Assembly: GCA_951406725.2 (NCBI GenBank)
Contig: OX597819.1
Span: forward strand, 109,120,001-109,184,000
Length of the DNA: 64,000 bases
DNA from: Octopus vulgaris
Lineage: Eukaryota
Direction: 5' to 3'
Shown: positions 60,580-63,488 of the stretch, piece by piece
How positions within the stretch are numbered: the first letter of the stretch is position 1
How the letters are laid out: each line of letters begins with the position of its first letter
Notes under the pieces: model-generated
Database searches by the model: none
What the model was told of the DNA's origin: nothing
What the model saw: only the letters and a program-made list of their open reading frames with translations
Made by a program: the position numbers and the translations under genes

Positions 60580-61743
60580 ATGACAAATTATCCTCTCATG
60601 ATGAATCATTTAACTAAAGCAAACAACCCTGATACAGGTGAGAAAACATATCACTCTAATACCTGCAGTAAATCATTCTGTCAGAGTGGTGTATTGGCTA
60701 GACACAAACGTACACATAGAGGGGAGAAGCCCTATCATTGTGATATCTGTGGTAAATCGTTCTCTCAAACTGGTAACTTGACTACACACAAACTAACGCA
60801 TACAGGAGAGAAGCCATACCATTGTGATATCTGTGGTAAATCATTCTCTCAAATTGGTAACTTGACTACACACAAACTTACGCATACAGGAGAGAAGCCA
60901 TACCATTGTGATATCTGTGGTAAATCATTCTCTCAAACTAGTAACTTGACTACACACAAACTTACGCATACAGGAGAGAAGCCATACCATTGTGATATCT
61001 GTGATAAATCATTCTCTCAAATTGGTAACTTGACTACACACAAACTTACGCATACAGGAGAGAAGCCATACCATTGTGATATCTGTGGTAAATCATTCTC
61101 TCAAACTGGTAACTTGACTATACACAAACTTACGCATACAGGAGAGAAGCCATACCATTGTGATATCTCTGGTAAATCATTCTCTCAAAGTGGTAACTTG
61201 ACTACACACAAAACTACGTATACAGGAGAGAAGCCATACCATTGCGATATCTGTGGTAAATCATTCACTCAAAGTGGTAACTTGACTACACACAAACTTA
61301 CGCATACAGGGGAGAAGCCATACCATTGTGATATCTGTGGTAAATCATTCACTCAAAGTGGTAACTTGACTACACACAAACTTACGCATACAGGGGAGAA
61401 GCCATACCATTGTGATATCTGTGGTAAATCATTCTCTCAAACTGGTAACTTGACTACACACAAACTTACGCATACAAGAGAGAAGCCATACCATTGTGAT
61501 ATCTGTGGTAAATCATTCTCTCAAACTGGTAACTTGACTACACACAAACTTACGCATACAAGAGAGAAGCCATACCATTGTGATATCTGTGGTAAATTAT
61601 TCACTCAAACTGGTAACTTGACTACACACAAACTTAGGCATACAGGAGATAAGCCATACCATTGTGATATCTGTGGTAAATTATTCACTCAAACTGGTAA
61701 CTTGACCACACACAAACTTACGCATACAAGAGAGAAGCCATAA
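60580..61743 (+). CDS. C2H2 zinc-finger protein copy B with homogenised 84-bp finger array
   Basis: 12 near-identical [23 protein letters not shown] units in frame before a TAC>TAA stop at 61741; degenerate fingers continue to about 62583; AATAAA at 62801; acceptor at 60157. Confidence 0.85.
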
Positions 61744-63488
61744 CATTGTGATATCTGTGGTAAATCATTCTCTCAAACTGGTAACTTGACTACACACAAA
61801 CTTAAACATACAGGAGAGAAACCATATCGTTGTCATATTTGTTGTGAATCATTCACTGAAAGTAGCCATTTGCCTAGTCACATACGTATTCATACTGGAG
61901 AGAAGTTATACCATTTTGATATTCTGCAGTAAACTATTCTCAAAGGAGTGACTTAACTAGAAACAAACGTACATCTACAGGAAAGAAGCCATTGAGCACC
62001 ATTGCGATATCTGTTGTAAATCATTCTCTGACAAAGGTACGTTGATAAAACACAAACTTACACATATAGCAGAGAATCTATATCATTGTGATATTTGCGG
62101 CAAATTCTTCCTTCAGAGTGGTGTCATGACTAAACACAAACGTGTACATACAGAAGAGAAGCCATATCATTCTGACATTTGTGATAAATCATTCACTCAA
62201 AGTTGTACCTTAACTAGAGACGAACATACAAATACAGGCAAGAAGCCATACCACTGTGATATCTGTAGTAAATCGTAGTCTTGTAATAGTCAGTTCACTA
62301 CTCATAAACGTACACATACAGGCAAGAAGCCATACCACTGTGATATCTCTGGTAAATCATTCTCTTTTTGTAGCGACTTAAATAAACACAAACGATGTAC
62401 ACAGACAGAAGAGAAGCCGTATCATTGTGATATCTGTGGTAAATCATACTTTAGAAATAGTCAGTTGACTATTCACAAACGTGTTCATACAGGAGAGAGG
62501 CCATATCATTGCGATATCTGTGGTAAATCATTCCCTCAAAAATGTCAATGAAGTAGACATTTGAGTATTCATACACAAGTGTAAAAATATCAATATCAAA
62601 ATTTATTACAACATATCAACAATTATGAGTTTTTTGTCTTCTACAAGACAAGGTTTATTCCTCTTCAAGCTTGATGTGTTCAACTTCAATTTTATAAATA
62701 TCAACTTCAGTATCATGGATATATCTAAATATATCAACACAATGAGAACTTTGATTTTTGATGAGGATTGTGCTGGATTTTGAGGAATTTGTTAGGAGAG
62801 AATAAAAGAATGAGAATAATGAATAAAAGATTTAAGGGAAATTGATTTGGTCTTTGTTGTGTTTTCCTCATGGTTGACTTTGTGTTTCATCCTTTCGAGG
62901 TCAATAAATTGAGCACCGTTTATATACTGGAGACAATCTAATTGCCTGGCTCCTCCCCATAAATTTTGGGCCTTGGGCCTAGAGAAGAGAAGAATATTTG
63001 CTATGTTGAATTGCTAAGTCATTTAACTATCCTCTTTATCTCACTGACTCTTTTTTTCTATTTCAGAATATCACATCCTGTTGACATAAAAGAAATTACT
63101 TCATTCAGATGTGCCTTTGATATTTTTATCAACTTTTATTGACTAAAGAAAGACGATATATTTATAAGGAGCATTCATCAATACATCTACCTTTTTACTA
63201 TAAAGAAAATCTATGACAAAATATGGCAAAATATTTCTTCTGGACGATGGAATTAACAGCAACAATTTGAAGTCCTTGCTATCTGGAATATAGAGGAGAT
63301 GATTGCTTTACAGGTTAATTAAGCTTGGATAACTTTACAAAGGCGTAGACAATTGTCACCTCATGATTTAGATATTAAGCAAAATCTCAGAGGAAAGAAA
63401 CGTCATTAAATTATTCCCTAAAAATAGTGACACAACTGAACACAAACATTCTCATAGAAATGAAATACACACTATCATTGTGATATGT

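What the first reader, a model, noticed from the sequence alone, without database searches (positions are those of the whole stretch)
60733..61824. PRDM9-like minisatellite zinc-finger array: one finger amplified to 13 near-identical 84-bp units
Seen: paralog A has a single SQTGNLTTH finger (about 51782-51865), while B has 13 tandem copies that are almost identical at DNA level. B's helix variants are [28 protein letters not shown] and QTGNLTI, and the flanks of A and B are near-identical. Known: this pattern marks concerted evolution by unequal crossing-over, as in PRDM9, and octopus genomes have clustered C2H2 expansions. Inferred from the finger code (Q-1 and N+3 both read A): the protein could bind tandem NAA triplets such as (TAA)n/(CAA)n/(GAA)n microsatellites or LINE tails. 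No SET or KRAB domain is visible.
Basis: partly seen in the sequence, partly recalled or inferred. Interest (0 to 1): 0.7.

Follow-up and report, generated by a model that had tools for sequence, protein, structure and literature searches.

The report
Runaway zinc-finger repeat in decaying gene
One zinc finger of a likely octopus gene is present as 13 near-identical copies, but unlike in the recombination gene PRDM9 its DNA-reading positions barely vary, and two related genes carry even longer runs behind a stop codon, so this is likely a neutral repeat expansion in a decaying gene and not a new DNA-targeting system.

Summary
In detail: 13 tandem 84-bp units at 60733-61824, 94.4% alike, 12 distinct. 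The PRDM9 reading fails. Only 9.5% of amino-acid diversity lies at helix positions -1/2/3/6, against 86% in the equally homogeneous core of a PR-domain gene of the same genome. Changes look neutral (15 replacement, 5 silent; omega about 1.2, CI 0.4-4.2) and include a dead finger and a stop. The protein is fingers only. The gene is a chimeric, partly decayed outlier of a large family clustered on another contig. Of 78 family genes, three have single-finger runs of 13 or more; the other two lie wholly behind a premature stop, so such runs need no selection on protein. What stays unusual: this run is in frame, and RNA-like runs hold gene-specific sequence beside it, so an 11-finger monotypic protein, predicted to read NAA triplets, may be made. 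Array length in other individuals is untested. The scan noted related octopus-type zinc-finger shuffling and an octopod PRDM9 before, on other DNA.

The parts
60733..61824 (+). Run of 13 near-identical 84-bp zinc-finger units (consensus helix QTGNLTT)
60580..61743 (+). ORF of gene B, 387 aa: short leader, one degenerate finger, 12 units (11 intact), TAA stop
   Evidence: same or next ATG opens the finger ORF in most family genes
60156..60157 (+). Splice acceptor AG of the coding exon (exon begins 60158)
   Evidence: sequence; contigs of RNA-like runs have loose 5' ends at 60157-60158 that map to GT donors of family first exons on C29; those spliced contigs differ from B at 2 letters, so they show the family's junction, not B's own
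60649..60732 (+). Degenerate first finger (first Cys lost); B-specific junction into the run
   Evidence: best other match in the genome 90% among 40 of 993 candidates scored
61153..61236 (+). Unit 6: Cys to Ser and His to Tyr, predicted dead finger
61741..61824 (+). Unit 13: begins with the stop; its 3' end matches the finger after the single copy in A (recombinant end)
61825..62587 (+). Untranslated relict fingers with frameshift and stops; one stop shared with A, another with the C27 relative
58203..60677 (+). 5' block duplicated with A (48662-51150), 95.9% identical; intron with LINE/SINE-like pieces plus exon start
51053..51775 (+). Paralog A ORF (240 aa, 7 intact fingers, premature TAA)
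51782..51865 (+). Single QTGNLTT finger of A, behind A's stop; source-like copy of the run
63489..64000 (+). Paralog C ORF start; continues beyond the window, 12 intact diverse fingers and the family's usual end

Best explanation
The 13 units are a single zinc finger repeated in frame inside a fingers-only gene, likely multiplied by misaligned recombination or slippage between 84-bp units and then left to drift under little or no selection. Shown: the run, its recombinant end, shared variants in neighbouring units, the lack of contact-site diversification, a dead finger, a stop, a decayed 3' part, and the same kind of run behind a premature stop in two paralogs. Inferred: direction (expansion in B, because relatives carry this finger type once or in short runs); timing (about the A/B split: A's finger differs from the units by 4.3%, the flanks by 3.5%); neutrality (small counts). 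The gene appears to be weakly transcribed; any protein would be a monotypic array predicted to prefer NAA triplets, but nothing shows that selection keeps it.
For: Share of amino-acid diversity at -1/2/3/6 is 0.095 for the 13 units (4 of 28 positions would give 0.14); Q-1 and N+3 never change. Whole-array values for 92 family arrays: median 0.337, B lowest at 0.21. 20 distinct changes (after leaving out 4 that come from the recombinant ends): 15 replacement, 5 silent, neutral expectation 71% replacement, omega about 1.2. Only 2 of 15 replacements hit contact codons, versus 66 of 162 in 77 near-identical finger pairs of other family arrays (Fisher p=0.05). Of 78 genes with a recognisable family ATG, 3 have single-finger runs of 13 or more; in the other two (28 x RNSNLVD in L094, 21 x QESHLVY in L092) 0 units are in the ORF from the family ATG, both lie behind the same stop, and the two genes are 98.5% alike upstream yet amplified different fingers. 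Only 29 of these 78 genes have all or all but one finger in frame, so decay is common. No close copy of the nearest subfamily's first exon was found near B (genome search, 40 of 174 candidates scored).
Against: The omega interval (0.41-4.2) does not exclude moderate purifying selection, and B's framework replacement:silent ratio (10:4) is not significantly different from the family control (77:53, p=0.57). Counting changes against a consensus ignores gene conversion; both contact changes match alleles of the C27 relative and may be inherited. B is the only one of the three long runs that is in frame, 11 of its 12 translated units keep all zinc ligands, and the stop falls at the end of the run. 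Four runs guessed to be RNA (2 studies) hold contigs with 0 differences over the B-specific stretch up to 60749, and one holds 62036-62230 with 0 differences. The 121 arrays surveyed (92, 29) are only part of the family.
Confidence: 0.72

Rival explanations
1. A young functional protein: 11 near-identical fingers would read tandem NAA triplets, for example (TAA)n microsatellites or A-rich retroelement tails, and selection would keep Q-1 and N+3 fixed.
For: In-frame run with family ATG; Q-1 and N+3 invariant in 13 of 13 units; engineered QSGNLTx helices pair with CAA/GAA (passages); AAT-class tracts are the second commonest trinucleotide class in 825 kb of fetched DNA (21 of 62 tracts); B-specific contigs in RNA-like runs; octopus ZNFs are predicted to bind TEs in PMC10547256 (passages).
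Against: No silent-site excess; with 15 replacements, none at two particular codons is unremarkable; dead finger in the middle and three altered linkers; no effector domain; same pattern arises in untranslated paralog segments; B's own first exon not found.
Confidence: 0.15
2. A PRDM9-like array: homogenised backbone with contact residues under diversifying selection.
For: High identity between fingers and signs of unequal exchange.
Against: P=0.095 versus 0.33-1.0 for complete PRDM9 orthologs in Table 1 of PMC5519329 and 0.857 for an 8-finger core (95.7% alike) of a PR-domain gene on C30 of this genome; 15 PR-domain matches in the genome, none on this contig.
Confidence: 0.03
3. The array is an assembly expansion.
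For: Tandem repeats are prone to misassembly; units 9 and 10 are identical; no raw long reads could be laid.
Against: 12 of 13 units are distinct, by up to 9 bases, with variants shared between neighbours; a misassembly would repeat identical copies, so at most one or two units are in doubt.
Confidence: 0.05

Closest known systems
Internal duplication within C2H2 arrays (Bjorklund 2006, PMC1553488, passages; GHT-SELEX paper PMC13541613, passages)
   Same: Arrays grow by tandem duplication inside one large exon.
   Different: PMC1553488 finds C2H2 arrays expand mostly by 2-4 domains and single-domain duplication is rare; here one finger is repeated 13 times with almost no change of predicted specificity.
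PRDM9 zinc-finger coding minisatellite (PMC5519329, sections 10 part 1 and 25)
   Same: 84-bp period, about 95% identity between units, signs of unequal exchange.
   Different: No KRAB, SSXRD or PR/SET; diversity avoids the contact positions; framework damage and a stop; relatives are ordinary clustered ZNFs.
Octopus-specific C2H2 expansions (PMC12513265, abstract and sections 8, 16; PMC10547256, passages)
   Same: Large clustered family of tandem-finger genes; this gene shares leader, start codon and finger style with dozens of genes on C29.
   Different: Lies away from the main cluster as a trio; monotypic run. Assignment to a published cluster was not tested; single-finger runs were not mentioned in the parts read.
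Paralogs L094 and L092 in the same genome
   Same: One finger repeated 21-28 times; different finger in each of two close paralogs.
   Different: Those runs are more uniform (97-98%) and lie behind a stop; B's is older-looking and in frame.

Membership tests
PRDM9 | PR/SET domain in the gene | tested here: not met
   ORF has a leader of about 23 aa then fingers; none among the 25 of 36 Pfam families shown; PF21549 has 15 matches in the genome, none on C6
PRDM9 | KRAB and SSXRD domains | tested here: inconclusive
   Not in the ORF; B's upstream exon is unknown; genome search for SSXRD rang nowhere, controls included; KRAB not searched genome-wide. The spliced model of a close paralog has no open N-terminal domain
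PRDM9 | Homogenised tandem fingers | tested here: met
   94.4% mean identity
PRDM9 | Amino-acid diversity concentrated at DNA-contact positions | tested here: not met
   P=0.095; lowest whole-array value of 92; in-genome control 0.857. Positions -1, 2, 3, 6 are recalled; the paper's parts that I read do not list them
PRDM9 | Allelic hypervariability; meiotic role | not testable with these tools
   Only short-read contigs were available
Octopus-type clustered fingers-only C2H2 genes (this genome's C29 family) | Shared exon leader, splice acceptor and start codon | tested here: met
   Leader 92-94% to C29 genes; ATG conserved; acceptor used in RNA-like contigs of paralogs
Octopus-type clustered fingers-only C2H2 genes (this genome's C29 family) | Own non-coding first exon | tested here: inconclusive
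   No copy found near B; a diverged or borrowed first exon is possible
Functional simple-repeat-binding zinc-finger protein | Purifying selection on the finger framework | tested here: inconclusive
   omega 1.2, CI 0.41-4.2
Functional simple-repeat-binding zinc-finger protein | Specific binding to (NAA)n | not testable with these tools
   Prediction only

The most novel reading that the evidence does not exclude
Octopus zinc-finger genes repeatedly blow up a single finger into a long monotypic array; most such arrays sit in dead sequence, but this one landed in frame, is transcribed, and gives a natural 11-finger homopolymer that reads (TAA)n-type microsatellites or retroelement tails: a route by which readers of simple repeats are born in one step.
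Probability: 0.13. Interest if true: 0.62.

Novelty: new member of a known kind. Interest (0 to 1): 0.27.

Why it matters
As most likely read, it is a clear example of the raw mutational process behind zinc-finger array turnover: single-finger runaway happens in this family (3 of 78 genes) and shows mainly where selection is off, which would explain why single-domain duplications look rare in working C2H2 proteins. It also warns that a homogeneous array is not by itself PRDM9-like. If the protein is made and binds NAA repeats, it would be a simple, testable case of a new repeat reader.

Tried and rejected
Protein search with the whole ORF returned generic zinc-finger proteins (best 120 of 6288; at most 62% identity; only 7918 candidates scored), no ortholog; residues 1-50 found no candidate. 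No run is on record as RNA: 'no RNA holder listed'; the four runs are guessed RNA (their contigs have spliced family ends and no cover at 60120-60149, but a hole proves nothing). Contigs cannot give array length. In three other runs (two DNA-guessed, one unlabelled) the only long contig over 61747-61933 carries A's letters (7-8 differences; A differs from B at 7) while B's 61904-62230 is held with 0-1 differences; the B-type junction and unit-12 words were not seen, which is inconclusive because contigs drop variants. A 55-letter unit contig in X13 had depth 67 against 10-20 for single-copy B pieces, fitting the 3.5 copies of those words in B, but depth is no copy number. The idea that the three monotypic arrays match the commonest microsatellite classes was dropped: with a free first base 12 of 16 dinucleotides fit the top three classes (my count). 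SSXRD search uninformative. Literature searches for a non-PRDM9 monotypic finger run or cephalopod PRDM9 listed nothing on point; only listings were seen and the library is partial. No supplements were read. No fold or complex job was run: the fold is known and DNA binding cannot be scored. The array survey missed a 5-unit run lacking the second His (seen).

Full report
Observation. The window holds three tandem fingers-only C2H2 genes on the + strand: A (ORF 51053-51775), B (ORF 60580-61743) and C (from 63489, running past the window). In B, 13 units of 84 bp at 60733-61824 differ pairwise by 0-9 bases (mean 94.4%), 12 being distinct; A's fingers average 79.5%. A has one such finger, 1 base from the consensus, behind A's premature stop. 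Unit 6 of B lacks a Cys and a His ligand, and unit 13 begins with TAA, so B encodes 387 aa with 11 intact units. That the genome is an octopus is inferred from its size, finger style and earlier scan notes; I did not look it up.

Gene context. The exon leader has at least 45 matches in the genome (40 of 222 candidates scored), mostly on contig C29, the best 92-94% alike; A, B and C are an outlying trio on C6. The family plan is a non-coding first exon, a splice acceptor, about 420 bases of leader and a conserved ATG followed directly by fingers. No copy of the nearest subfamily's first exon was found near B. B is a mosaic: 5' block 95.9% like A, 3' flank 86% like A but 95.8% like a gene on C27 whose later fingers match B's relict fingers nearly one for one, a stop included. 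That gene has three QTSNLTI fingers and one QNGNLTT finger behind its first finger, so this finger type has multiplied there too.

How the run arose. Neighbouring units are more alike than in shuffled order (mean 3.9 versus 4.7 differences, p=0.006; inner 11 units p=0.026), with shared variants in units 7/8, 9/10/12, 11/12 and 2/4, and unit 13 ends with the tail of the finger that follows in A. This fits repeated misaligned exchange (inference). A's finger differs from the units by 4.3% and the non-coding flanks by 3.5%, so the burst is about as old as the A/B split. Relatives carry QTGNLT-type fingers singly or in short runs, so expansion in B is likelier than contraction in A.

PRDM9 test. 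Baker et al. [quoted passage not shown] With positions -1, 2, 3, 6 (recalled), P is 0.095 for the 13 units, 0.13 for the 11 intact ones. As a whole array B is the lowest of 92 family arrays (0.21; median 0.337). The genome's PR-domain matches lie on other contigs (15 matches, none on C6); the 8-finger core of one on C30 is as homogeneous as B (95.7%) and has P=0.857, a second 6-finger core 0.587. B is therefore not a PRDM9 and does not evolve like one.

Selection. Twenty distinct changes from the consensus (four from the recombinant ends left out) are 15 replacement and 5 silent; with the flank's transition bias 71% replacement is expected without selection; omega about 1.2, CI 0.41-4.2. Two of 15 replacements hit contact codons, against 66 of 162 in 77 near-identical pairs from other family arrays (p=0.05); framework ratios do not differ significantly (10:4 versus 77:53, p=0.57). 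Counts are small, and gene conversion breaks the single-origin assumption; some variants are common family alleles.

Natural control. In 121 arrays (92, from 694 kb of C29, the window and four further loci; 29), two more long monotypic runs turned up. Of 78 genes with a recognisable family ATG, runs of 13 or more occur in three: L094 (28 units), L092 (21) and B (13); the next longest are 5. L094 and L092 are 98.5% alike upstream, share a premature stop before the runs, and amplified different fingers; none of their run units is in the ORF from the family ATG, though L092 has an internal ATG that opens into its run. Single-finger runaway thus needs no selection on protein. Bjorklund et al. (PMC1553488, passages) found single-domain duplication rare in C2H2 proteins; purging in working genes would reconcile the two (inference).

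Expression and other individuals. No run is on record as RNA. Four runs guessed to be RNA (2 studies) have contigs with family first exons joined at the acceptor and contigs of 100-138 letters identical to B up to 60749, a stretch at most 90% alike elsewhere among scored candidates; one has 62036-62230 without difference. So B is likely transcribed at both sides of the array; its 5' end and the array in mRNA are not shown. B's 3' part is held with 0-1 differences in runs of three organism labels. Array length in other individuals could not be tested.

Predicted binding. Engineered helices QSGNLTE, QSGNLTR and QSSNLVR pair with CAA and GAA (passages of PMC9705829, table read in reverse finger order, and PMC5260015), so QTGNLTT is predicted to read NAA. 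AAT-class tracts are 21 of 62 trinucleotide tracts in 825 kb. Whether octopus C2H2 proteins silence repeats is called an open question in PMC12513265 (section 16). Nothing here tests binding.

Verdict. Real and the only in-frame long run of its kind seen, but most likely (0.72) a neutral coding-minisatellite burst in a weakly expressed, decaying family member; a functional NAA-repeat reader 0.15; PRDM9-like 0.03; artefact 0.05. New member of a known kind; interest 0.27.

Noticed in passing
L094:5163-8100 (G000:C29:19.095 Mb, +) and L092 minus strand (G000:C29:26.096 Mb): Two close paralogs each carry a very uniform single-finger run (28 x RNSNLVD with a higher-order period of 5-7 units; 21 x QESHLVY) behind a shared premature stop.
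   Followed up: yes
L103-L105 (G000:C30:2.76-2.79 Mb, -), also C30:4.17 and 5.46 Mb, C22:47.26 Mb: Several PR-domain genes; the two tandem ones at 2.76-2.79 Mb have 14- and 16-finger arrays whose cores vary mainly at contact positions (P 0.59, 0.86): PRDM9 candidates, KRAB/SSXRD and orthology untested.
   Followed up: partly
G000:C29:22837246, 22852792, 22974052 (minus strand; L033-L035, L044-L045): Fingers-only genes with homogenised backbone and shuffled helices (P 0.40-0.55); family-wide, 66 of 162 replacements between near-identical fingers fall in the four contact codons. These are more PRDM9-like in pattern than B.
   Followed up: partly
window 62504-63473; L004:7411-6442: B and C are spaced by the same 969 bases as a gene pair on C29, with no room for a first exon: exon-only tandem copies that may share an upstream first exon.
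   Followed up: partly
window 47040-47561 (-): Intronless GNAT acetyltransferase ORF, 173 aa (Pfam PF00583), resembling NAA20 (name recalled); it points away from gene A, so a shared promoter is possible.
   Followed up: no
window 35789-37366 (+): Uninterrupted 525-aa ORF with CENP-B N, Tc5 HTH and DDE_1 domains: a Tigger/pogo-type, possibly domesticated, transposase.
   Followed up: no
window about 1500-16700 (-): Exons resembling an FtsJ/Spb1-type rRNA methyltransferase gene (name recalled, not tested).
   Followed up: no
window 25351-27230 (+): Long ORF pieces resembling a Penelope-type element with a GIY-YIG-like end (recalled, not tested).
   Followed up: no
L016:7334-6915 (-): Five in-frame copies of a finger that lacks the second His: amplification of a non-canonical finger.
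   Followed up: partly
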